From Naegleria gruberi (Eukaryota): a stretch of 64,000 bases of DNA. Within the stretch, counting starts at the first letter, position 1. Each line of letters begins with the position of its first letter. Below, in pieces: positions 1,316-44,148 of the stretch. The DNA lies in assembly GCA_000004985.1 (NCBI GenBank), contig GG738871.1; one strand, 5' to 3'. Below the pieces are notes generated by a model, which was given only the letters and a program-made list of their open reading frames with translations, made no database searches and was not told where the DNA came from. The translations under genes were made by a program, and so were the position numbers.

Positions 1316-3583
1316 TTATTCCAGAATTGAGAGTGAGATTATCATTTTAGTATTAGGATCTCTCTTCAAGTCGTACTTGTTCATTTCAATCATTCCAAGA
1401 TCGTATCCCTTCATACTACTCAAATCTTTAACAATTTGATCAGTTCCGAAATATGGATGGCTCACAACAGAATTATCAGTAAATCCATGTCCAAGAGTAA
1501 TACACTCAACTCCATTAATTGAAACAACATGTCCTTGATCAACTACCAAATTATAGACATAATCACAGGCAACATCTTGAGGTGATTTGATATCGATTGG
1601 GAATTTCCATTCACCCTTAACTCTTACAGGGTGATATGGGGTAATGTACATTCCATTCATTTCACACAATTTGACAATAGGGGAAGGAGTCTTGCTCTTC
1701 AAGACGCATAAAATAGTGGCATATGAATCACCATTCATGTTCTTAACTCTGTCTCCTTTCTTAATTTCAGAAACCTTCTTGACAGAGTTGTCATACATTG
1801 TGATTAATGAATTACCATCGAAGCAAGAACCACCTGCATTGTAGTATGAGCTCATGTTTGTTGGGGTGTTATAGCTGCCACCACCATAGGAATAGACATT
1901 TGATGGTTTTGGAGGAGGAAGTTTACAAAAGATGTCATCTGCAACAGATTGCAAAGCTTCAAACAAGCTTCCACCAAAGATTTGAACACTTGGGTCTTTG
2001 AAATTGTGGCATTGTTGCATCCAGTTAGCACGAAGGAGAGAAGGCAAATAGTGATAACCCCACTTATTCATGAACTCTTGTTTGGAGAAGGCAATAGATA
2101 CTTGACCTTCGTTTGTATTGTCACTCTTAATATCTCTAACTAGAGCACTGACACGTTCATCTGTAAAGGATGGTAATTTGGCAATAGTTTGCAAGAAGGA
2201 TTCTAATTGATGTTTGCATTCCTTACTACTGTCATCTCTGCTACTGTTACCATTTCTGTAGGTTTGAATACATTTTTCAACACATTCAATGAACATTAAT
2301 CTTGTCAAGTTGGCATCCATATCAGTAGCTTGTTCTGAGGAGAGTGATTGATTAACAGGTTCAACTTTTTCAATAGAATGGTGATTGTAAGTGAGATCAA
2401 CCTTAATGGCAGGCAAATTATTGGCATGCATATCGACATCAATAATATAATCTCTTGATTGTTGGAATTGAACTCCTCCCATTGAAATTGTGAATTGTTT
2501 TTCATTGGTACTGTTATTTCCATTTTGACTGGAACCGTAAACGTGTGAAATCTTGGCACCGTTCATTGAGGAAATGACCAACTCGGCTCTTCTAACAGCA
2601 GTACATAAAATATTACTCATCATGTTAACAAATGTTGTTCCAACCATGGAACAATCAGGAATATAAGAGTAAGCTCCACTTCCATTCATTGCAATATCTT
2701 TCAATAAGGCACTATCCAAACTGTATCCAAATCCAAAGCTGTGAATTGTGGAATTCAATGGATGTTCCTTAATGTACTTTTCAAGAGTTGGGACAATACC
2801 TCTTGGAGGATTAATGTTAGGTTCACCATCTGTGAATAGAATCAAACAAGTATTGGTCTTTGCACAGAGAGGATTATTAAGACTGGATTCCATTCCCAAT
2901 CTCAAACCATCCCATACATTGGTAGATCCTTCAGGTCCTAAATGTTCCAACTTTTCAATGGCCTTCTTCTTACCAACTGCATCCATTTTAGTGAGAGGAA
3001 GTTCCATTCTTGCAGAATCACTGAATGGAATGAGAGAAATTTGATCCTTTTCATTCATTAATTCAATAAGAGTTCTAACAGAGTGCTTGACCAAATCCAA
3101 TCTTGAAAATCCAGTATTTTCATTGGAAGAACTCAAATCTTCAGCACTAGATCCCATACTTCCACTCACATCGAGAATGCATACCAAATTACATGGTTGA
3201 CGTTGACCTCCAGTAGGTGGTGATACCTTAACATGAATTCTTCTCTTTGATTCACTCACTTGCTTTGAAACAATTGTCAAATTCAAAGAATGATCTTCAA
3301 TATCTTGCTCAACCAATGGTGTGACTCTATTCACAACAATAGGAGTATTTCCATGAACCAATTGTTCAATAGTATTTCTCAAAGCAATATTCGATACCAA
3401 CAACTCCTTGCTCATGGCTTCTCTTGTCAATGGTGAAGTAGCATGAATAGTCAACCAATGTTCAATTGCTTCTCTTTCATAGGTTTGACCATCGGTACCA
3501 ATAACAGGATCTTTCATAATTTCCTGTGTGATTGGACAATAAAATTCATTTGGATAATTTCTTTGAGTTGATGATGATGACAT
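1316..3583 (-). CDS. U-box E3 ligase domain + von Willebrand A domain + C-terminal Hint (hedgehog/intein-type autoprocessing) domain protein. 755 aa, single exon.
   Basis: The N-terminus 'FYCPITQEIMKDPVIGTDGQTYEREAIEHWL' is a U-box. 'CILDVSGSMGSS' is a vWA MIDAS DxSxS motif. The C-terminus 'CFDGNSLITMYDNSVKKVSEIKKGDRV...VVDQGHVVSINGVECITLGHGF' is a Hint module that begins with the nucleophilic Cys. The start is a genuine ATG at 3583. Confidence 0.75.
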   Translation of the reverse strand: MSSSSTQRNYPNEFYCPITQEIMKDPVIGTDGQTYEREAIEHWLTIHATSPLTREAMSKELLVSNIALRNTIEQLVHGNTPIVVNRVTPLVEQDIEDHSLNLTIVSKQVSESKRRIHVKVSPPTGGQRQPCNLVCILDVSGSMGSSAEDLSSSNENTGFSRLDLVKHSVRTLIELMNEKDQISLIPFSDSARMELPLTKMDAVGKKKAIEKLEHLGPEGSTNVWDGLRLGMESSLNNPLCAKTNTCLILFTDGEPNINPPRGIVPTLEKYIKEHPLNSTIHSFGFGYSLDSALLKDIAMNGSGAYSYIPDCSMVGTTFVNMMSNILCTAVRRAELVISSMNGAKISHVYGSSQNGNNSTNEKQFTISMGGVQFQQSRDYIIDVDMHANNLPAIKVDLTYNHHSIEKVEPVNQSLSSEQATDMDANLTRLMFIECVEKCIQTYRNGNSSRDDSSKECKHQLESFLQTIAKLPSFTDERVSALVRDIKSDNTNEGQVSIAFSKQEFMNKWGYHYLPSLLRANWMQQCHNFKDPSVQIFGGSLFEALQSVADDIFCKLPPPKPSNVYSYGGGSYNTPTNMSSYYNAGGSCFDGNSLITMYDNSVKKVSEIKKGDRVKNMNGDSYATILCVLKSKTPSPIVKLCEMNGMYITPYHPVRVKGEWKFPIDIKSPQDVACDYVYNLVVDQGHVVSINGVECITLGHGFTDNSVVSHPYFGTDQIVKDLSSMKGYDLGMIEMNKYDLKRDPNTKMIISLSILE

Positions 3584-35632: not shown

Positions 35633-38600
35633 TCAGTATTTAATTTCTGAATTCAACAGTAAGTTTGACATACCTGTTCCATCAGTTACAATAGAAACAA
35701 ATCGGCAATCAAGTGGGTTAGTATTAGGAAAGAATAGTTGGATTGGAAGTAAAATAAAAAATGTCATTGCTGATAATTGAACAGCAATGCAGTAATGTTT
35801 TGCATTGCACTGGAGTGTAAAATTGCCTATGCCTATATCTGTTGGATTAGGAGTCCAGGTAATTGCTGTGGAAGTATACTGAGATAGAGCTTGATGAGTT
35901 GCTGTGTCACGATTTAATTGTCTGATATTGTTATTGAAATTGATATTTTGAGGGAAAAGTGAATTGATAGAACCATTCATAGGTGTTATTGGCATTCCTA
36001 TCATTGAATAATTGCTACTTCCAAATTGAAAATTGAACATGACTGTTGTTGGTATAGTTTGTGAGGATGATATTGAGCTGGAAGTGTTTGGTGGATTGGC
36101 GGATTCATTTCCTTTCTTCTTCTTTTGATCATTTTCCCAAACAATAATTAATTCGTGTTCTTTTCGTTTCTTCTCATTCTTCTTTCGTTCTTTTTCTAGT
36201 ATTTCTTGCTCCTTTCTTTGCTTTTTCTGTGCTATTCGTTCCTTTTCTATTCTACTCTTATCGAGCAGTCTAGAAAAAACGAATTGAGGAGTCAAGTTTG
36301 GGTTTAATTGGTAATCGAGTAAAAATTTCTGTAAATCCCGTAAATTTTCTTTGGCATTTTTCATCAATTTCAATTGATATGTCTGTATTTCTTGGGTTGT
36401 AAATTTCTTTTGCATACTTGATTTGTAGGAGGTAGATATTGTTATACAGGAGTCTAAGGTATTACTGAACTTCTTTAGTTTTGATCTAATGTGTGATACT
36501 TGAGTATTACTAAGAGTGAATGAAAATTCAAACTTTTTCTGGTAGAAATTTTTGATGAAAGAGTTAACAGAAGAACACAGATCACAATCACAATCAAACT
36601 CTGAGGGTTGTGAGAAGCAAATTGTTAGCGCTTTTCTATCATTGATGCACTTTTCTAAATACTCTATACTTGTTTTCATTAATCTTACCCAATTTTGTAA
36701 AGCACCATTTGTACAAAGAGACTGAAAATTATTTCTTACAAAGTAAGTGTCCAATATTTTAACAATGGTAAATATAACTTCATCCTTATCCATCATTAAT
36801 TCCCAAACCTCAATTAATTTGCTAATAGATTCATACTCTTTTGTATCAAATAAATTTGAAAAAATTGTTTCATGCTCCTCCTGTGTTTTCAATAATTTGT
36901 TTTCAATAATATATTTCCTAAATCCAGAATAGAAAAGTTGAACATCTTTGTTTTCAACATCTTGCTTATAATTTTCAAAATATGTAGATGGCTTTAAATT
37001 TGAAAACAGTACAGAGGGCTCAAATGTACTGTAACCATAATCTTGAATGAGCTGTAAGGATTTTGGGTAATCATTTTTCAGGTAGATGGGTATGAGACAC
37101 TGTGCAAACTCTCTTGTCAAGAATATATCACAAATAAAGAGACTATAATATGGGTCAGATTTCGTAGCATTCGATTCTATTATCGATCTAAAAGCCGGTA
37201 AAAAGAGTTCTGAATCGAATTATAAAGGGGGAAGATTCAACACAACTTACCCTTATCGAAAGAATATACTACATCTCTCTGCTTTTCACAAAATCTATAA
37301 ATTTTTTCCATGCAATCAAAGGACTGAATTACAGGACTAGCTCTTTCGACAATAATTCTCATATCTTCCAAATTGAAATATTTCTCAAAAATATTTAAAT
37401 AATATGATAAATGATAAGTTTCCTTCTTCTTCAATATATCTACAACAAATGAAGCGTAAATATCTCTGAAAGTAGCAAACCCAAACTTATGCAATAATTT
37501 CTCAAATATTACCGATGAAATATTTTGGAAATTACACTTTTTAAGAAGAAAATCTTCAGCTAGCTCTTTGCTATCCAGCTCTATCAATACATCCAACATC
37601 TTCTCATGTTTTGTTCCTTTTACAGAAGAGTCCCATCCAAAAGAAGAAGTATTGAACCAAAAATCAGTAAACTGCTCATAAAAACTTTTCAAATATTGCT
37701 CACTTCCAATTTTTAGCAGATGTTTGAAATAGTGGAGTGTAAAGAAGAACCCCAAATTAAAGTAAGAGTAATCCTCATCTGGAAGAATAATCAAACACGT
37801 GGTTCTGTACCATTTTGATGATTGAGTTCCATAATTTCCTTCAAGAGAAAAAATTACATATTAAAAAAAATCAAATAAATACCTGTTTGATATTCAACGG
37901 ATTGCAATAGTTTCATATCATTAGCTCTTTCTTTTGGGAAGAATTCATTTAAATCTTGCGTTAGTTCGGCATAAATTGGCTCATTATTATAAAATATCTT
38001 TGAAATTTCAAAAGTAGCACCTTTTTCAAAATCTCCATCACTATATCCATCATTAACTCGTTTCGTGATAAATGCTGGAATAATTAAAATTTTCAAACAT
38101 GTGTCTTTTAAGGCAGAATAGATTTTGTAATCATTTCCTTTCAAATTTTCACACCCAAAAACTAGACTCTCTGATGTATAATCATGTTCCAATAAATAAA
38201 TTATAGATTTGTAGTAGAGATCGCCTTTCAACCATGAAATCAACTGCTGACTCAGCATTTCTAGATCATTTTCAATGTCTACAATGGGTAATGGTTGGTT
38301 GATATCATGGGTCGTGACAATAATATTATAAACTAGACAAGTTCTATATCCACTTGTCAAAGGCATTACTGCATGATCACAATCCGAATAGAATGAAATG
38401 AAATGGGCAGAGGTTGAAGCATCTTCGTCTGAATAATCAATTTCCCTTTCACTCGAATTATGTCTAATTTTAAAAGAACCTCCTTCATAGAGGGATGGTA
38501 AAATAATTGCCAAGGTGCATGTTTGTTGACATTCCTTTTCTTTGTGAAAATCAAAATGACCTCCTTTCTCGTATAATAATAATTTGTGCAATTTACATGG

Positions 38601-39137
38601 ACTTTGAACCACTTTCTTGTGTTTCTCAATTCCCAATCCACTTTTGATTTTTGAATTCAATAATAAATGCAATTCTTTCTGCCAGACTGGATTAGTAATT
38701 CTGAATTGGTGTGGTTCCAATTCGAATGAATTTCTCACTTGATCATGAATTGTTTCCTCACCCTTTCCAAATGGTGATTTCTTCCCAATTCGTATAATTT
38801 CATCAGCCTGTTCTTTGTAAATGATTGGCAATGCAATAGGTTTATATTTCTCTACATTCTCTTCAGTAATTATTAATTCAATTCCAGGCACTTTCATCAC
38901 ATCAGGAAGACGATCATAATAATAATAATTTCCTCCAACTGATGTAATATTTGTAAAGGTATTCTGCAGCCTTCCAAAAAGATCCTCCATATTGAAGGAA
39001 TTATCATGATCGGAATCACTTTCATTTGCTTGATCGGATGAATCTGTGTCATTTACTTCTTCAGTTTTAATTTCATTGGTTGCGTGATGTTCGTTTGTTT
39101 CTGCGTGAGAGGATGCAAGAGTTTCATTTTGCTCCAT
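35633..39137 (-). CDS. Large protein with an N-terminal prolyl-4-hydroxylase-type 2OG-Fe(II) oxygenase domain and a long C-terminal extension. Three exons (39137..37883, 37838..37251, 37176..35633) with introns of 44 and 74 nt.
   Basis: The oxygenase core is 'KLHKLLLYEKGGHFDFHKEKE...TLAIILPSLYEGGSFKIRHN...HFISFYSDCDHAVMPLTSGYRTCLVYNI', with H.D, a distal H and R..(C/S). Exon 1 ends '...VEYQTG' with a GTATTT donor. Exon 2 begins '(G)NYGTQSSKWYRTTCLIILPDEDY...' and ends '...VVYSFDK' with a GTAAGT donor. Exon 3 begins '(E)SNATKSDPYYSLFICDIFLTREFAQCL...'. All phases are 1 and consistent. The track 'M' residues at 39185, 37794 and 37120 are GTG/TTG artefacts. The first ATG is at 39137 ('MEQNETL'). 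Confidence 0.6.
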
Positions 39138-39546
39138 TTTTTGGTGGAAATTTATGCTCTTTCCCGCCAAGATAAACGTTGCCACAGAGAAAGATAAAAA
39201 AATGTGGTGATATTATTTGAATGTTTGATAATGTTTAGATGGAGGTGTTTCTGCTTTTTCTCCATTATAAAATACTAAATATTGAAATATTGTTAATCAA
39301 ATATGATGAAATTAATAGTAACATTTGGAAACTTTGATCATCAGAAAACAAAATGTGATACTAATAGACAACTAGTAGTTGTTGGATAATCAATTTAGAG
39401 ATCTTCATTTCGGATGGAACAATAACCATCATGATGCATATAAAATTATCATCACATAATTAATTCCAAATCAGTACATTTTCATCGAAATGGATAAAAA
39501 CAAACGATTAGAACAAAGCAAACTAAAAAATTGAGTCAAAAGGATC

Positions 39547-41298
39547 ATGTCTATTAACACCACTTTCAATCAAAAGACTACTCAAAGTGGAGAACCTCCA
39601 ATGATGATGAGAATGACAAATAGTAGTACACCACCACTAACACCAAAGAATTGCCTCCCTATTTTCGTCTACAATGATTATGGGAAATTAATTAGAGAGG
39701 AACAGCAACAACCTACTGATATTATTACTAATAACAATAATTCAATGATGAGATCTATGCCAACTACCAATAGATGGGAAACAAATCCACAAACACCATT
39801 AAGTGTTTCTCCTTTCCAACCACTTTTACCGATTCCAAATTTCTCTCATGCATTCATTGTGGGAAATTTGCCACCAAGTGTGTCAGTGAGGAGAAAGAAT
39901 AGGAAAATGTCAGAGAAACCAAAAAACAACTCTGCACCAAGTAAAATAATGCATCAATTAGAATTATCAGTATTGAATAATCAGAGAAGAATTGCACCAA
40001 AAGGACCTCTTGCTGATATTTCTAATATACAACTTCCTCAACAAGAATCAACAAATAAGAGCAATAACACAACACCTAAAAAACCAAGAATTAGGCAATT
40101 AATGTTAACAACTCCCCTTAGAGAAAGCCTTCAATCAAACCAATCGGCCAGAAGCAAATACATTGATGAAGAAGCAAATAATTATTCTATTAATGATAGT
40201 CCTGAAACAACAATTATTAAAACCAGCAATACAAAAGATAGTGAGCATAAGGCAGCGATGGCAACTAATTTGGGCTTATCTACTGATGATTTTGAGTGCA
40301 AACCATTCGAAACCACAACACTACCTTCCGTCATTGATAAGAATTATCTGGTGGTTGATAAGGAAGGATGTACACAATTAGCACTCCTTCCCAATCACAT
40401 CCCAACAAGTGTGTGTAAACTTATTGAGGTGAAGTGTAGGAAAGTTTCTAACTTGAGACATGCCTTAAAAATCCAAAAGGCATCATTTTACGTCAATTGG
40501 TGGACTAAAAGTCAGCCAATGGGCTATATGTGTAAAGATAACGAATCTGAAATTGGAAAAGTTGTCAATGAGATTGCAGAATTACTCTCTGATCATTGTA
40601 GAAATTTATTACGAATGTGCAATGAGAGAGTGTACAAGAAAATTAGTGAGCTGAAGGAAGACAAGTTTTTTGCACCTTGTATTTGTTTTAATATATTGGA
40701 ACATGATTTGGAGAGCAGAATTACGAAATTTCATCATGATAAAATGGATTATGGAGTTTCAGTTTTATTCTATTTTGGAGACTATAGTCGAGGAAATTTG
40801 AATGTTTTGGATGCAGGATCTTCATCAACCATTGTCACACGACCTGGTGATGCTGTAATATTGAGAGGAAATTACTACAAGCATTCTGTGCAAAACATTG
40901 AACCTGGGAACAATAAGGCAAGATACAGCATTGTATTTTTTGCTCATTCGACACATTTCCTTAAGAAAAAGTATGAACTCTCCCCTGCAGCTGCTAAGAA
41001 GGCATTCTTGGTTGACAATCCTGATTTTGTTTCCATAAAGAAGAGAAAGCAAGCCAGTTCCTCCTCAGATGTGAGTGTAAAGAAATCAAAGAAATCCACT
41101 GAAGATAATGTAGAATTCATTCAGACTCACACCTACTTGGGCAATGGTTACAAGTCTGGTCACAAGAATTATCAATATTATGTTAAATTTAATAATAGTG
41201 ATCAGAAGGAGTGGAAATCTTACGAAAGCTTGCCGAAGCAAGCAGTTGCCTCCTATTGGGTAAAATTCAAAAAGCTCAAATCTTTGAGCAATCAATAA
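39547..41298 (+). CDS. Tet/JBP-family 2OG-Fe(II) dioxygenase (NgTet1-like catalytic domain) with a C-terminal chromo-like domain.
   Basis: The catalytic region 'KNYLVVDKEGCTQLALLPNHIP...KFHHDKMDYGVSVLFYFGDYSRGNLNVLDAGSSSTIVTRPGDAVILRGNYYKHSVQNIEPGNNKARYSIVFFAHS' aligns block-for-block with the NgTet1 sequence as I recall it ('...KPHKDNLDITPSSLFYFGNF...VQPGDVLFFKGNEYKHVVANI...LVYFAH', quoted from memory and unverified). The C-terminus 'EFIQTHTYLGNGYKSGHKNYQYYVKFNNSDQKEWKSYESLPKQAVASYW' has the chromodomain pattern (aromatic cage Y/Y/W and the 'W....L' turn). The N-terminal 270 aa are low-complexity. Confidence 0.8.
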   Translation: MSINTTFNQKTTQSGEPPMMMRMTNSSTPPLTPKNCLPIFVYNDYGKLIREEQQQPTDIITNNNNSMMRSMPTTNRWETNPQTPLSVSPFQPLLPIPNFSHAFIVGNLPPSVSVRRKNRKMSEKPKNNSAPSKIMHQLELSVLNNQRRIAPKGPLADISNIQLPQQESTNKSNNTTPKKPRIRQLMLTTPLRESLQSNQSARSKYIDEEANNYSINDSPETTIIKTSNTKDSEHKAAMATNLGLSTDDFECKPFETTTLPSVIDKNYLVVDKEGCTQLALLPNHIPTSVCKLIEVKCRKVSNLRHALKIQKASFYVNWWTKSQPMGYMCKDNESEIGKVVNEIAELLSDHCRNLLRMCNERVYKKISELKEDKFFAPCICFNILEHDLESRITKFHHDKMDYGVSVLFYFGDYSRGNLNVLDAGSSSTIVTRPGDAVILRGNYYKHSVQNIEPGNNKARYSIVFFAHSTHFLKKKYELSPAAAKKAFLVDNPDFVSIKKRKQASSSSDVSVKKSKKSTEDNVEFIQTHTYLGNGYKSGHKNYQYYVKFNNSDQKEWKSYESLPKQAVASYWVKFKKLKSLSNQ

Positions 41299-41357: not shown

Positions 41358-43496
41358 CTAGCTCAATATTAACTTGAGAACTTCATCATTTGATTTATCT
41401 GACAGAGTAGTCTTGAAAGTAAGCACTCCATTCAACAGTGAAATTACATAAAGAGTTTTTTCCTGTTCGCCTGTCTCTACAAACATAGAGTTAGATCTTG
41501 GATAGATATTAACAGCATTTGGACGTTCAGAGAGTTGTTTCCTAAATGTCCAAACTAGAGTTCCAGATTTGATATCAACACAATAGACCGATAGATAAGT
41601 ATCACCAAATAAATCTTCAGTTTCCACATCATCCGCCATCTCATCTTCATTGGCAGGTTCTTCCATTGTTTCCTCAGATTCATCCTCAATATCTACTACT
41701 TCTTCCTGTTGTTGTTGACGTTCTTTCAATGGCTTATGTACACATGCAAAGTAAATATTGCTTCCGTAGAGATAGTATGATTTGCAAGAAGTCTTGGCAG
41801 GTATTTCCAAAGGAACAGACCAAACAATAGATGGTGTTAAAACCTGCTCAACTACCTTCTCACGATTTCTAAAGTGTCTTTCATGTTCTACATTCACAGC
41901 AACTGATTTTAAGCATGAACATCCCTTCTTGTAAGGCAAATTGCCAAAAGTTGCCTTCTTTTCATTGGCTTGATAAGGTGAGAGGTAAACAAATCCACCC
42001 AAAGACTTTTCTTCATCCTCAAAAATTACAAGAGGCTCTCCTGAGGCAAGATTATTTCTATCCTTGTCAAAACCGGAAAAGATATTCTTCAATTGATCTA
42101 TATCAAATACACTCCCAGAGGCAAACAGATTGTTTGGAGTGACATGTAAATTGCCTGAGAAGGAATCTCCAACAGTAGTTCCAGTCATAGATAATAGAGA
42201 GAAATGACTCTCAGATCCTGTTAGCAGATATATTTGATTGTCATCTGTTACTATTGAGGATATTAATCGATCTACATTAGCAACATCCTTTAAGAGCCCA
42301 ACTTCGCGTAAAGTCATTCTATCCAGTATATGGACATTATGCTTTTTTGTCTTTACAATGTAAAACTTGTCGATAGGTAAGAGTGATGAGGTAGCCTCTT
42401 CTAATTCTTCCTTTGGGAGTTTTACACGAAGTGTTACGAAATGTCTACACACGCCTTTCATATCTAGCAAGGCAATATAATTTGGAAATTCTAATACAAT
42501 TTTTCTGGTTAAATGATCATAAAATACAAATAAAAGATTATCCTTAAAGAATTCCTTTCTTTCCCTCTCTACAACAGACTGAAATTCATAAGACTCCTCA
42601 AATTTTCTGGTATCATTGGCTTCATTTTGAAGCTCAATCATTCTTTGTTGCCATTCAGCACTATTAATTGCTACTTGTTGATTTTTCATAGTGTCATTGA
42701 ATGTTTGTCTCAATCGTTCCCTTCTTTCCTTGTCCTTGAGGGTCAAAAGCTCCCTCTTGAAAGTGCTAAAGGCCTTATCCTGTTGCAATTTTACCTCCAA
42801 AGGTTTGATTTGATTGAATGCATCTTCTGAGAGTGAAAGAACTGTTTGACCAGTTGGAACATCTACCACTTGAAAAGTATCCTTCCCTCTATTTGGATCG
42901 AATATAAATACATAATCAGTACCAGTGTAAACTCGTTTTTGTTCAGATCCAGACTTGTTGAAAATCTCAAACCTTTCATGTATGTATGGAGAATGAATTG
43001 AAGTCATTTCTTTCAATGAGGCAATTGTATTTGGCAATGTATAAATCACCTTGCTTTGCAAAATATCAAAACATGATTTTCCATCCTTTAAAAAGGTATA
43101 TCTGTCTCTATTCTTGATACTTCCCTTCAAACACATTTGATTCCAAGACTTTGATACTAATCGACATGTTTGAATTTCCTCCAAGGTAAGAAAAGCCAAT
43201 GACGTGCTGATACAATCTTCAACAGTCATAGATACAAACTCTGATGAAGGCTTTTCACCCATAACCATAAATTGAAGTTTTCTTCGTTTGAGACTTCTCA
43301 GAGTAATATCATTGGTCAAGACTTTTCCAGAGCAAATAATTTTAGTTCTTGATGGTGGTATCCCAAAGTCCTGCTCCAATTCTTTCTTGATGGTTTGTAT
43401 GCTGGTATTTTCATCCAAGTCTAGAGTACATTTGGTTTTCTTACTCAGAATGTTGAAAGATACATTCACTATACTATTATTATTATTGGAAATCAT
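41358..43496 (-). CDS. Protein with an N-terminal ubiquitin-like domain, an F-box-like motif and a C-terminal beta-propeller-like region.
   Basis: 'VSFNILSKKTKCTLDLDENTSIQTIKKELEQDFGIPPSRTKIICSGKVLTNDITLRSLKRRKLQFMVMG' has a UBL fold signature. 'LAFLTLEEIQTCRLVSKSWNQMC' is F-box-like. The track start 43541 is TTG and the first ATG is at 43496. Confidence 0.5.
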   Translation of the reverse strand: MISNNNNSIVNVSFNILSKKTKCTLDLDENTSIQTIKKELEQDFGIPPSRTKIICSGKVLTNDITLRSLKRRKLQFMVMGEKPSSEFVSMTVEDCISTSLAFLTLEEIQTCRLVSKSWNQMCLKGSIKNRDRYTFLKDGKSCFDILQSKVIYTLPNTIASLKEMTSIHSPYIHERFEIFNKSGSEQKRVYTGTDYVFIFDPNRGKDTFQVVDVPTGQTVLSLSEDAFNQIKPLEVKLQQDKAFSTFKRELLTLKDKERRERLRQTFNDTMKNQQVAINSAEWQQRMIELQNEANDTRKFEESYEFQSVVERERKEFFKDNLLFVFYDHLTRKIVLEFPNYIALLDMKGVCRHFVTLRVKLPKEELEEATSSLLPIDKFYIVKTKKHNVHILDRMTLREVGLLKDVANVDRLISSIVTDDNQIYLLTGSESHFSLLSMTGTTVGDSFSGNLHVTPNNLFASGSVFDIDQLKNIFSGFDKDRNNLASGEPLVIFEDEEKSLGGFVYLSPYQANEKKATFGNLPYKKGCSCLKSVAVNVEHERHFRNREKVVEQVLTPSIVWSVPLEIPAKTSCKSYYLYGSNIYFACVHKPLKERQQQQEEVVDIEDESEETMEEPANEDEMADDVETEDLFGDTYLSVYCVDIKSGTLVWTFRKQLSERPNAVNIYPRSNSMFVETGEQEKTLYVISLLNGVLTFKTTLSDKSNDEVLKLILS

Positions 43497-44148
43497 GATT
43501 CTCTTATTAATTTGAACTTGTTGAAGATGTATGATGTACAAGAAAAAATCAATCGATTCCGAAAACTACACTTTCAAAATATGATCAATTTTTAAGCCTG
43601 AGCAAATGATGAAACTCTATTCCCAAGCCTTCTTCGCTTTTTTTTGTTTGTTCTATTTTTGCTTCAAAATTTGCTGCTCTTGGTCTTTGAACAAAACATT
43701 GTTCTTGAAGCAAATTTTTCATCAACATAAGCTCTCATATGTAACAATAACTTTGTCCTAACTACCTCCTCTCGGAACACCAAATAATATTATCATCCAA
43801 ATACCATCCATTAGGAGTCAATAATTTTGAAAGAAGATTAAATTCTTGATGATTTTTTTCAAGCTCCAAAAAATGGCTCCTTCCTTCTCGCCCACACCAA
43901 ATGGCAAAACAATAATTTCAGCACAGCAACAGCTGCAGTCGGAGTCTTCATTTCGTGATGAATGTGTTTGTGGAGAGAATGTTGAATGGCTTGGTTGATT
44001 TATCTACATCTTCTATTGTACCACTTATTGAATCTTCTTCATCATCTTTGAAAGGGAATCAAATCAATAATAATCAGGACTATGTATTGATAGTATTAAT
44101 GCAAACTTTGATAATTCATCCATTACACCAACAAAAGCCATCATTAAC

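What the first reader, a model, noticed from the sequence alone, without database searches (positions are those of the whole stretch)
39547..41298. Tet/JBP 5-methylcytosine-dioxygenase-like gene fused to a C-terminal chromo-like domain
The catalytic core (about 40370..40960) reproduces the NgTet1-type Tet/JBP blocks, including the H.D triad, 'LFYFG', 'RPGDAV..RGNYYKHSVQNI' and 'FFAH'. The last ~55 residues ('YQYYVKFNNSDQKEWKSYESLPKQAVASYW') look like a chromodomain aromatic cage. A methyl-lysine-reader-like module attached directly to a DNA base oxidase would couple histone-mark reading to 5mC/T oxidation within a single polypeptide. I am not aware that this exact architecture has been characterised. 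A ~270-aa low-complexity N-terminal region precedes the catalytic domain.
Basis: partly seen in the sequence, partly recalled or inferred. Interest (0 to 1): 0.75.

Follow-up and report, generated by a model that had tools for sequence, protein, structure and literature searches.

The report
Naegleria Tet paralogue with degenerate chromodomain
This gene is a catalogued but uncharacterised Naegleria gruberi member of the Tet family of DNA 5-methylcytosine oxidases. Its tail is probably a worn-down chromodomain that has lost most of its methyl-lysine-binding pocket, so it is an interesting paralogue rather than a new kind of enzyme.

Summary
The ORF 39547..41298 (+) is real. It is identical to N. 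gruberi XP_002676528.1 / NAEGRDRAFT_68183 (583 aa, "predicted protein").

**Tet/JBP domain: firmly supported.**
- Residues ~255-506 match NgTet1 by sequence (E 2e-18).
- All three Fe ligands, the two arginines R391/R459 (NgTet1 R224, which pairs with 2-oxoglutarate, and R289) and three of four base-contacting residues are conserved.
- Pfam Tet_JBP scores below threshold, but Pfam also misses NgTet1 itself.

**C-terminal 66 residues: probably a diverged chromodomain.**
- Pfam and a canonical chromodomain profile do not detect them.
- They align without gaps to the Pfam-positive chromodomain at the same position in the nearest paralogue, NAEGRDRAFT_46005 (BLASTP E 8e-4; 0 of 5000 shuffles reach the score).
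- The model gives the β-β-β-α chromodomain topology (pLDDT 68-84).

**Aromatic cage: not supported.**
- Only one of three cage positions is aromatic (D520, F548, S551; S551 is Ile in another strain).
- The domain is basic (pI 9.3), whereas typical chromodomains are acidic.

So the Tet-plus-chromodomain architecture exists in Naegleria, in cleaner form in the paralogue. Methyl-lysine reading by this protein is doubtful. Interest is modest.

The parts
39547..41298 (+). Complete single-exon gene, 583 codons plus TAA. It equals N. gruberi NAEGRDRAFT_68183 / XP_002676528.1 / UniProt D2VHE0.
   Evidence: ORF list. Exact-sequence look-up in the protein collection. A 99%-identical allele lies on a metagenome contig with the same downstream neighbour.
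39547..40308 (+). N-terminal region, residues 1-254. It is S/T/N/P/Q-rich (47%), has basic NLS-like patches (RRKNRK, PKKPRIR) and no recognisable domain. It is probably disordered.
   Evidence: No Pfam hit. Composition. No homologue covers it other than the 99%-identical allele P0001. Three of the six amino-acid differences between strains fall here.
40309..41064 (+). Tet/JBP-type Fe(II)/2-oxoglutarate dioxygenase domain, residues 255-506. It comprises the double-stranded β-helix core plus two trailing helices.
40732..40740 (+). H396-x-D398, the first two Fe(II) ligands (NgTet1 H229/D231). D401 (40747-40749) corresponds to NgTet1 D234, which contacts the cytosine N4.
   Evidence: Invariant columns in the 15- and 21-sequence family alignments. 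Residue mapping. Coordinates checked. NgTet1 residue roles are from PMC4678852; the Fe-ligand numbers H229/D231/H279 are from my own knowledge of the 4LT5 structure.
40882..40884 (+). H446, the third Fe(II) ligand (NgTet1 H279). Nearby are R459 (40921-40923, = R289), V463 (= V293), and F465 and H467 (40939-40947, = F295 and H297, base stacking and N3 contact). R391 (40717-40719) = R224, and C380 replaces A212.
   Evidence: Residue roles from PMC4678852.
41065..41097 (+). Basic Ser/Lys linker (SDVSVKKSKKS). Together with the preceding IKKRKQ it is NLS-like.
   Evidence: AlphaFold pLDDT <50 for model residues 255-265, which are protein residues 509-519. Residues 491-517 carry a net charge of +5.8. 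Two of the six strain differences fall here.
41098..41295 (+). Diverged chromo-like domain, residues 518-583. Elements: β1 523-530, β2 542-547, β3 554-558, α 564-581. Cage-equivalent positions are D520, F548 and S551; the structural Trp is W556.
   Evidence: BLASTP against the chromodomain of paralogue P0003 (Pfam Chromo 28.8 bits, residues 461-514): E 8e-4. Smith-Waterman score 58 against shuffles of 25.6±5.0, with 0 of 5000 reaching it. It is the top hit when that chromodomain is searched against all 320 window ORFs (phmmer E 0.007). AlphaFold gives β-β-β-α with pLDDT 68-84. Against: no Pfam Chromo hit, and a canonical chromodomain HMM scores it at background level.

Best explanation
The gene encodes a paralogue of the Naegleria gruberi Tet-like dioxygenases (the NgTet family). 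The central domain is an Fe(II)/2-oxoglutarate dioxygenase. By analogy with NgTet1, it flips a 5-methylpyrimidine out of duplex DNA and oxidises the methyl group (5mC to 5hmC, 5fC and 5caC).

Retention of the Asp that contacts the cytosine N4 amino group (D401 = NgTet1 D234) favours 5mC over thymine as the substrate.

The enzyme is flanked by two regions:
- a long, probably disordered N-terminal region with nuclear-localisation-like basic patches;
- after a basic linker, a C-terminal domain descended from the chromodomain that the nearest paralogue (NAEGRDRAFT_46005) still carries in canonical form.

In this protein the chromodomain has diverged. Two of three aromatic-cage residues are lost and the surface has become basic. 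It most likely serves as a chromatin, nucleic-acid or partner-protein tether, not as a classical methyl-lysine reader.

Shown: family membership, fold, conservation of catalytic residues, and similarity of the tail to the paralogue's chromodomain. Inferred: activity, substrate, and what the tail binds.
For: **Identity**
- Exact match to XP_002676528.1.

**Tet domain**
- NgTet1 E 1-2e-18.
- Exhaustive HMMER search of 1.84 billion representatives returns only 16 hits, 15 of them in the Naegleria-type Tet clade.
- H396, D398, D401 and H446 are invariant across the family, and R459 is nearly so.
- R391, V463, F465 and H467 match NgTet1 R224, V293, F295 and H297. Their roles are documented in PMC4678852.
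- Model pLDDT 87.5, pTM 0.73.
- No amino-acid difference in residues 255-490 between two strains, although six occur elsewhere.

**Chromo-like tail**
- In a neighbour-joining tree of the catalytic core, the query pairs with the chromodomain-bearing P0003 in 31 of 50 bootstraps. It falls in the clade {query, P0002, P0003} in 47 of 50.
- P0003 residues 461-514 score as Pfam Chromo above threshold. They hit Clr4, CDYL, MPP8 and HP1 chromodomains at E 3e-5 to 8e-4.
- The query tail aligns without gaps to this chromodomain at the same position in the protein.
- All 30 PDB hits of the joint profile are chromodomains.
- The best PDB hit of the tail alone is a cpSRP43 chromodomain, in register, at E 0.69.
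- The predicted β-β-β-α topology coincides with the aligned chromodomain elements.

**Loss of cage and change of charge**. S551 is Ile in the other strain.
Against: - No enzymatic data exist for this paralogue.
- NgTet1 N147, which contacts the cytosine O2, aligns with K321. That column varies across paralogues, so base recognition may differ.
- A212, whose size limits iterative oxidation in NgTet1, is Cys here.
- N. gruberi DNA has little 5mC (0.28%) and no detectable 5hmC (PMC12344493). The in-vivo substrate of any NgTet is therefore uncertain.
- The chromo assignment rests on one transitive link. Pfam Chromo gives nothing. A canonical chromodomain HMM scores the tail no better than random window ORFs. 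hhalign gives P of only 0.02-0.1.
- The AlphaFold alignment for the tail held only the 99%-identical allele and P0003, so the predicted fold may partly echo P0003.
- I could not run a fold search on the tail alone.
- No orthologue with this tail was found outside N. gruberi, so conservation of the tail cannot be assessed.
Confidence: 0.7

Rival explanations
1. The C-terminal domain is a working methyl-lysine reader, possibly with a non-canonical cage built from other aromatics such as F524, Y530, Y535, Y545 and F548. It targets the oxidase to methylated histone tails.
For: The domain is aromatic-rich and one canonical cage position is retained (F548). The paralogue P0003 has an intact Y/W/Y cage, so the ancestral fusion probably did read methyl-lysine. 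From general knowledge, some chromodomains bind with two aromatics, for example CHD1.
Against: Cage positions 1 and 3 are D520 (or a gap) and S551. Position 551 is Ser in one strain and Ile in another, which argues against constraint there. The domain has pI 9.3 and net charge +3.6, against pI ~4.9 for P0003 and HP1 chromodomains. That is unfavourable for binding basic histone tails.
Confidence: 0.15
2. The C-terminal tail is not a chromodomain. The resemblance is chance plus compositional bias, and the tail is simply a basic NLS or nucleic-acid-binding extension.
For: No Pfam Chromo hit even at E ≤ 10. A canonical chromodomain HMM gives 0.5-1.4 bits for the isolated tail and -2.3 bits for the full-length protein, below several random window ORFs. 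The closest non-gruberi relative, P0002, ends without such a domain, and none lies downstream on its contig. The AlphaFold result could be biased by P0003 in the alignment.
Against: There is an ungapped 55-residue alignment to the P0003 chromodomain at the equivalent position of a sister paralogue. None of 5000 shuffles reaches its score, and it is the top hit among 320 window ORFs. The β-β-β-α prediction has pLDDT 68-84. The only two PDB sequence matches of the tail alone are weak, and the better one is a chromodomain in the correct register.
Confidence: 0.2
3. The enzyme is a Tet-fold protein whose physiological substrate is not DNA 5mC. It could be thymine in DNA (JBP-like 5hmU formation) or RNA m5C. 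Alternatively it is catalytically dead and acts as a scaffold.
For: No 5hmC was detected in N. gruberi DNA and 5mC is very low; the authors of PMC12344493 suggest thymine or RNA substrates. NgTet1 has minor thymine activity (PMC4678852). N147 is replaced by K321.
Against: D401 (= D234) is retained, and it specifies the cytosine N4 amino group in NgTet1; D234N shifts NgTet1 towards thymine. All metal-binding residues and both arginines (R391, R459) are intact, so a dead enzyme is unlikely.
Confidence: 0.25

Closest known systems
NgTet1 (N. gruberi Tet-like dioxygenase; PDB 4LT5, 5CG8, 5CG9)
   Same: Same organism and same family. About 28-29% identity over the catalytic domain, and the model superposes at 1.6-1.9 Å. 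The Fe triad, the two arginines R224/R289, D234, V293, F295 and H297 are all conserved.
   Different: NgTet1 is 321 aa and has no C-terminal domain. The query adds a 254-aa N-terminal region and the chromo-like tail. N147 becomes K321 and A212 becomes C380. The query belongs to a different sub-clade.
NAEGRDRAFT_46005 / XP_002682154.1 (P0003), the N. gruberi Tet paralogue with a canonical chromodomain
   Same: It is the nearest N. gruberi paralogue by catalytic-domain tree and E-value. The order is the same: Tet domain, post-catalytic helix, linker, C-terminal chromodomain. The tails align without gaps.
   Different: The P0003 chromodomain passes Pfam, has an intact Y/W/Y cage and is acidic (pI 4.9). 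P0003 also has a ~70-residue insert in the β-helix and a ~50-aa acidic tail after the chromodomain. The query's copy fails Pfam, keeps only F548 and is basic.
Targeting modules on other Tet/JBP enzymes: the CXXC zinc finger of TET1/TET3 and the J-DNA-binding domain of JBP1
   Same: The logic is shared: a base oxidase joined to a module that chooses where on chromatin it acts. This rests on general knowledge and was not tested here.
   Different: Those modules read DNA (unmethylated CpG, base J) and are unrelated in fold to chromodomains.
Plant chromomethylases (CMT3/ZMET2; PDB 4FSX)
   Same: A chromodomain within a DNA-5mC enzyme, linking histone methylation to DNA methylation state. ZMET2 chains appear among the PDB hits of the P0003 chromodomain.
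   Different: They are writers (methyltransferases), not oxidases. Their chromodomain is embedded in the catalytic domain and has a working cage.
Chromodomains that lack a full aromatic cage: chromoshadow domains and group I retrotransposon integrase chromodomains
   Same: They keep the chromo fold after losing cage residues, and serve for protein-protein or other tethering rather than methyl-lysine reading. This is from general knowledge and serves only as a lead.
   Different: No sequence relationship was demonstrated here. The comparison is functional only.

Membership tests
Tet/JBP 5-methylpyrimidine dioxygenases (2OG-Fe(II) dioxygenase superfamily) | HxD...H facial triad for Fe(II) | tested here: met
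   H396, D398 and H446 align with NgTet1 H229, D231 and H279. They are invariant in the 15- and 21-sequence alignments.
Tet/JBP 5-methylpyrimidine dioxygenases (2OG-Fe(II) dioxygenase superfamily) | Arginines that bind 2-oxoglutarate and stack on the base (NgTet1 R224, R289) | tested here: met
   R391 and R459. The role of R224 is described in PMC4678852.
Tet/JBP 5-methylpyrimidine dioxygenases (2OG-Fe(II) dioxygenase superfamily) | Double-stranded β-helix fold closest to solved Tet structures | tested here: met
Tet/JBP 5-methylpyrimidine dioxygenases (2OG-Fe(II) dioxygenase superfamily) | Residues that hold the flipped 5mC (NgTet1 N147, D234, F295, H297) | tested here: inconclusive
   D401, F465 and H467 are conserved. 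N147 aligns with K321 in a column that varies among paralogues.
Tet/JBP 5-methylpyrimidine dioxygenases (2OG-Fe(II) dioxygenase superfamily) | Pfam PF12851 Tet_JBP above the gathering score | tested here: not met
   The full protein gives no hit. The isolated domain scores 18.9 bits against a cut-off of 34.9, although Tet_JBP is the top family. As a control, NgTet1 itself gives no Tet_JBP hit, so the model is insensitive to this clade and the failure is not informative.
Tet/JBP 5-methylpyrimidine dioxygenases (2OG-Fe(II) dioxygenase superfamily) | Oxidation of 5mC (or T) in DNA | not testable with these tools
   Needs recombinant enzyme and LC-MS.
Chromodomain (Pfam PF00385; chromo-like fold) | Pfam Chromo above the gathering score | tested here: not met
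   No hit at E ≤ 10 for the full protein or the isolated tail. A canonical 10-sequence chromodomain HMM gives 0.5-1.4 bits for the isolated tail and -2.3 bits for the full-length protein, which is background level.
Chromodomain (Pfam PF00385; chromo-like fold) | Significant similarity to a bona fide chromodomain | tested here: met
   This holds only for the paralogue P0003's Pfam-positive chromodomain: BLASTP E 8e-4, 0 of 5000 shuffles, and phmmer E 0.007 as the top of 320 ORFs.
Chromodomain (Pfam PF00385; chromo-like fold) | Three-stranded antiparallel sheet packed against a C-terminal helix | tested here: inconclusive
   AlphaFold predicts β523-530, β542-547, β554-558 and α564-581 with pLDDT 68-84. 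The alignment for this part was only the allele plus P0003. No fold search of the isolated domain was possible, because hits are dominated by the dioxygenase.
Chromodomain (Pfam PF00385; chromo-like fold) | Aromatic cage of three residues (HP1 Y24, W45, Y48 type) | tested here: not met
   The equivalent positions are D520 (or a gap), F548 and S551. S551 is Ile in strain variant P0001.
Chromodomain (Pfam PF00385; chromo-like fold) | Methyl-lysine peptide binding | not testable with these tools
   Needs peptide array, ITC or NMR.

The most novel reading that the evidence does not exclude
After duplication of an ancestral Tet-chromodomain fusion in the Naegleria lineage, one copy (46005) kept a histone-methyl-lysine reader. 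This copy (68183) re-purposed the chromo fold into a basic module that binds nucleic acid, the nucleosome acidic patch or a partner protein. The two oxidases would then be sent to different chromatin compartments. That would be a natural experiment in how a reader domain is re-tooled on a DNA-base oxidase.
Probability: 0.3. Interest if true: 0.5.

Novelty: new member of a known kind. Interest (0 to 1): 0.3.

Why it matters
Tet enzymes need something to tell them where to act. A Tet joined to a chromodomain would link histone marks directly to DNA demethylation, mirroring the plant chromomethylases that link H3K9 methylation to DNA methylation.

Naegleria has two such proteins. One has a textbook chromodomain and the other, this gene, has a degenerate basic one. 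Comparing them biochemically would show whether the fusion reads histone marks and what happens when the cage is lost.

It also bears on the open question of what the eight Naegleria Tet paralogues do in a genome with little 5mC and no detectable 5hmC (PMC12344493).

The gene, its family and its fold are already in public databases, and the better example of the architecture is the paralogue elsewhere in the genome.

Tried and rejected
- **Word-indexed homologue searches.** The three searches returned almost nothing: only the 99% allele, then none, then the allele plus P0012. The exhaustive HMMER search was what recovered the family.
- **Single-sequence AlphaFold.** It failed, with pLDDT 30. 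The 21-sequence alignment fixed this.
- **Canonical chromodomain evidence.** Pfam, my own HMM of 10 Pfam-validated chromodomains and hhalign all gave non-significant results. I therefore do not claim direct similarity to canonical chromodomains.
- **Fold searches.** Both were dominated by the dioxygenase domain, so the tail could not be assessed. afdb50 was unavailable.
- **Metagenome scans for further Tet-chromo relatives.** The alignment had no usable conserved stretch. Two scans found no relatives.
- **Hidden chromodomain exon downstream of the closest outside relative, P0002.** None was found.
- **dN/dS between strains.** There are only 9 substitutions (3 synonymous, 6 non-synonymous), too few to use.
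- **Literature.** Hashimoto 2014, Iyer 2009/2013/2014, Pais 2015, Tahiliani 2009 and Pastor 2013 are not held. Full-text searches found no paper naming this accession or a Tet-chromodomain fusion. My recollection that this is one of the eight published NgTet paralogues, and that a Naegleria Tet-chromo fusion was noted earlier, is therefore unverified.
- **Other paralogues in the window.** None was found.
Full report
**1. What is in the sequence**

The window carries one uninterrupted ORF on the + strand from ATG 39547 to TAA 41296-41298, encoding 583 aa. Its translation is an exact match to the deposited Naegleria gruberi protein EFC43784.1 / XP_002676528.1 / NAEGRDRAFT_68183 / UniProt D2VHE0, annotated only as "predicted protein". 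The surroundings fit that origin:
- GC content is about 33%.
- Long ORFs are densely packed.
- Nearby genes have eukaryotic domains: U-box-VWA-Vint, ubiquitin plus F-box, and a DEAD-box helicase.

A 99%-identical allele (P0001, 582 aa) lies on a 4.9-kb metagenome contig with the same downstream neighbour.

**2. The catalytic domain is a Tet/JBP dioxygenase**

Sequence evidence:
- A sequence search of the PDB finds the NgTet1 chains 4lt5_A and 5cg8_A at E 1-2e-18, over query residues 266-478.
- An exhaustive HMMER scan of 1.84 billion cluster representatives finds only 16 proteins. Apart from one leucine-rich-repeat false positive, all belong to the Naegleria-type Tet clade. They include N. gruberi paralogues 46005, 79850, 76485 and 76676.
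- In the family alignment P377, N382, H396, D398, D401, D435 and H446 are invariant, and R459 is nearly so.

Mapping onto NgTet1. My recalled NgTet1 sequence was checked against every residue number quoted in PMC4678852 and against the PDB alignment.

| Query | NgTet1 | Role in NgTet1 |
|---|---|---|
| R391 | R224 | ion pair with 2OG; stacks on the base |
| H396, D398, H446 | H229, D231, H279 | Fe(II) ligands (numbering from my knowledge of 4LT5) |
| D401 | D234 | contacts the cytosine N4 amino group |
| R459 | R289 | conserved Arg |
| V463 | V293 | lines the hydrophobic pocket |
| F465 | F295 | stacks on the base |
| H467 | H297 | contacts N3 |
| K321 | N147 | contacts O2; this column varies among paralogues |
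| C380 | A212 | pocket size limits iterative oxidation |

The residue roles, apart from the Fe ligands, come from PMC4678852.

Structural evidence:
- AlphaFold2 on one sequence failed (pLDDT 30).
- With the 21-sequence family alignment it gave pLDDT 87.5 and pTM 0.73.

Pfam's Tet_JBP model does not reach threshold. The whole protein gives no hit, and the isolated domain scores 18.9 bits against a cut-off of 34.9. NgTet1, a crystallised and assayed Tet, gets no Tet_JBP hit at all. The miss therefore reflects the model, not the protein.

**3. The C-terminal tail**

Evidence against a direct link to canonical chromodomains:
- Pfam Chromo finds nothing in the whole protein or the isolated last 84 residues, even at E ≤ 10.
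- I built an HMM from ten chromodomains that each score 61-78 bits on Pfam Chromo. It gives the isolated tail 0.5-1.4 bits and the full-length protein -2.3 bits. Several random window ORFs score higher.
- hhalign gives P 0.02-0.1.

Evidence for an indirect link through a paralogue:
- The nearest N. gruberi paralogue, P0003 = NAEGRDRAFT_46005 (575 aa), carries a C-terminal chromodomain. It passes Pfam (28.8 bits against 25.1, residues 461-514) and hits the Clr4, CDYL, MPP8 and HP1 chromodomains in the PDB at E 3e-5 to 8e-4.
- The query tail aligns to exactly that segment over 55 residues without a gap. BLASTP gives E 8e-4. The Smith-Waterman score is 58 against 25.6 ± 5.0 for shuffles, and 0 of 5000 shuffles reach it.
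- When the P0003 chromodomain is searched against all 320 stop-to-stop ORFs of the window, this tail is the clear top hit (phmmer E 0.007, 11.6 bits, next best 5.0).
- The two catalytic domains are also nearest relatives: sister in 31 of 50 bootstraps, and within {query, P0002, P0003} in 47 of 50. Both proteins share the post-catalytic helix and basic linker.
- A profile of the two tails hits only chromodomains in the PDB (30 of 30, best E 7.7e-4). The tail alone gives only two weak PDB matches, and the better one is a cpSRP43 chromodomain in the correct register, although not significant (E 0.69).
- The AlphaFold model gives β 523-530, β 542-547, β 554-558 and α 564-581 with pLDDT 68-84. This is the chromodomain topology, and the elements fall where the alignment puts them.

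Caveats:
- The alignment for this part contained only the allele and P0003.
- I could not run a fold search on the tail alone.

I rate a chromodomain origin at about 0.75-0.8.

**4. The aromatic cage is not there**

- In the alignment the P0003 cage residues are Y, W and Y. The query has D520 (or a gap), F548 and S551.
- Position 551 is Ser in this strain and Ile in the other.
- The domain is basic, with pI 9.3 and net charge +3.6. The P0003 and HP1 chromodomains have pI about 4.9.
- The preceding linker is also strongly basic.

A classical methyl-lysine reader is therefore unlikely. A nucleic-acid, nucleosome or partner-protein tether is a better guess, but it remains a guess.

**5. The N-terminal region**

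Residues 1-254 have no Pfam domain and, apart from the 99%-identical allele P0001, no homologue. They are 47% S/T/N/P/Q with basic patches. Three of the six amino-acid differences between strains fall here and none falls in residues 255-490. There are too few substitutions for a formal selection test.

**6. How it most likely works**

By homology with NgTet1, the enzyme flips a 5-methylpyrimidine out of duplex DNA into a pocket formed by F465 and R391, with D401 and H467 on the Watson-Crick edge. It then oxidises the methyl group using Fe(II), 2-oxoglutarate and O2.

- Retention of D401 favours 5mC over T. In NgTet1, D234N shifts specificity towards T (PMC4678852).
- C380 in place of A212 may limit iterative oxidation. 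This is inferred from the A212V phenotype.
- The flanking regions probably supply nuclear import and targeting.

Activity, substrate and targeting are all inferred. N. gruberi DNA has only 0.28% 5mC and no detectable 5hmC, and the authors of PMC12344493 raise thymine or RNA as alternative substrates.

**7. Comparison and novelty**

The gene is a member of the Naegleria Tet family. From memory, it is one of the eight NgTet paralogues listed with the NgTet1 structure. I could not retrieve that paper.

The Tet-plus-chromodomain architecture is real in Naegleria but is best represented by paralogue 46005. The present gene is a diverged second copy whose chromo-like domain standard tools do not annotate; no precomputed Pfam domains are recorded for its near-identical cluster representative. 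No paper in the searchable library mentions either accession or a Tet-chromodomain fusion, and no biochemical work on it is known to me.

I therefore class it as a new member of a known kind, of modest interest. The chromo call is probably right in fold but wrong in its cage and reader details.

Noticed in passing
window 37854..39185 (-): A 443-aa ORF lies head-to-head with the Tet gene, separated by a 361-bp intergenic region (39186..39546). By eye it shows a prolyl-hydroxylase-like 2OG-oxygenase pattern (LLLYEKGGHFDFHKEKE ... EGGSFKIRH ... FYSDCDHAVMPLTSGYRTCLVYNI). It has no Pfam hit and no PDB sequence hit. If it is real, two divergently transcribed dioxygenase genes share a promoter region.
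   Followed up: partly
window 41358..43541 (-): A convergent downstream gene encodes a ubiquitin-like domain plus an F-box and a possible C-terminal β-propeller. The same gene sits next to the Tet allele on metagenome contig L001.
   Followed up: partly
window 1316..3583 (-): A U-box-VWA-Vwaint-Vint (Hint-like) multidomain protein, with strong Pfam hits.
   Followed up: no
L001 491..2239 compared with window 39547..41298: The second-strain allele differs by one Met deletion (codon 19), 6 non-synonymous changes and only 3 synonymous changes. None of the amino-acid changes lies in the catalytic domain (residues 255-490). One is S551I, at the chromodomain 'cage-3' position.
   Followed up: yes
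not in the window: Pfam PF12851 and the NgTet1 sequence: Pfam's Tet_JBP model gives no hit for NgTet1 itself and only sub-threshold hits for most Naegleria-type Tet proteins. Domain-based surveys will therefore under-count this clade.
   Followed up: yes
P0003 (NAEGRDRAFT_46005), elsewhere in the N. gruberi genome: This paralogue has a ~70-residue low-complexity insert inside the β-helix, between the third Fe ligand and the conserved Arg. It has a canonical chromodomain with an intact Y/W/Y cage, followed by an acidic ~50-aa tail. It is the better candidate for a true histone-reading Tet.
   Followed up: partly
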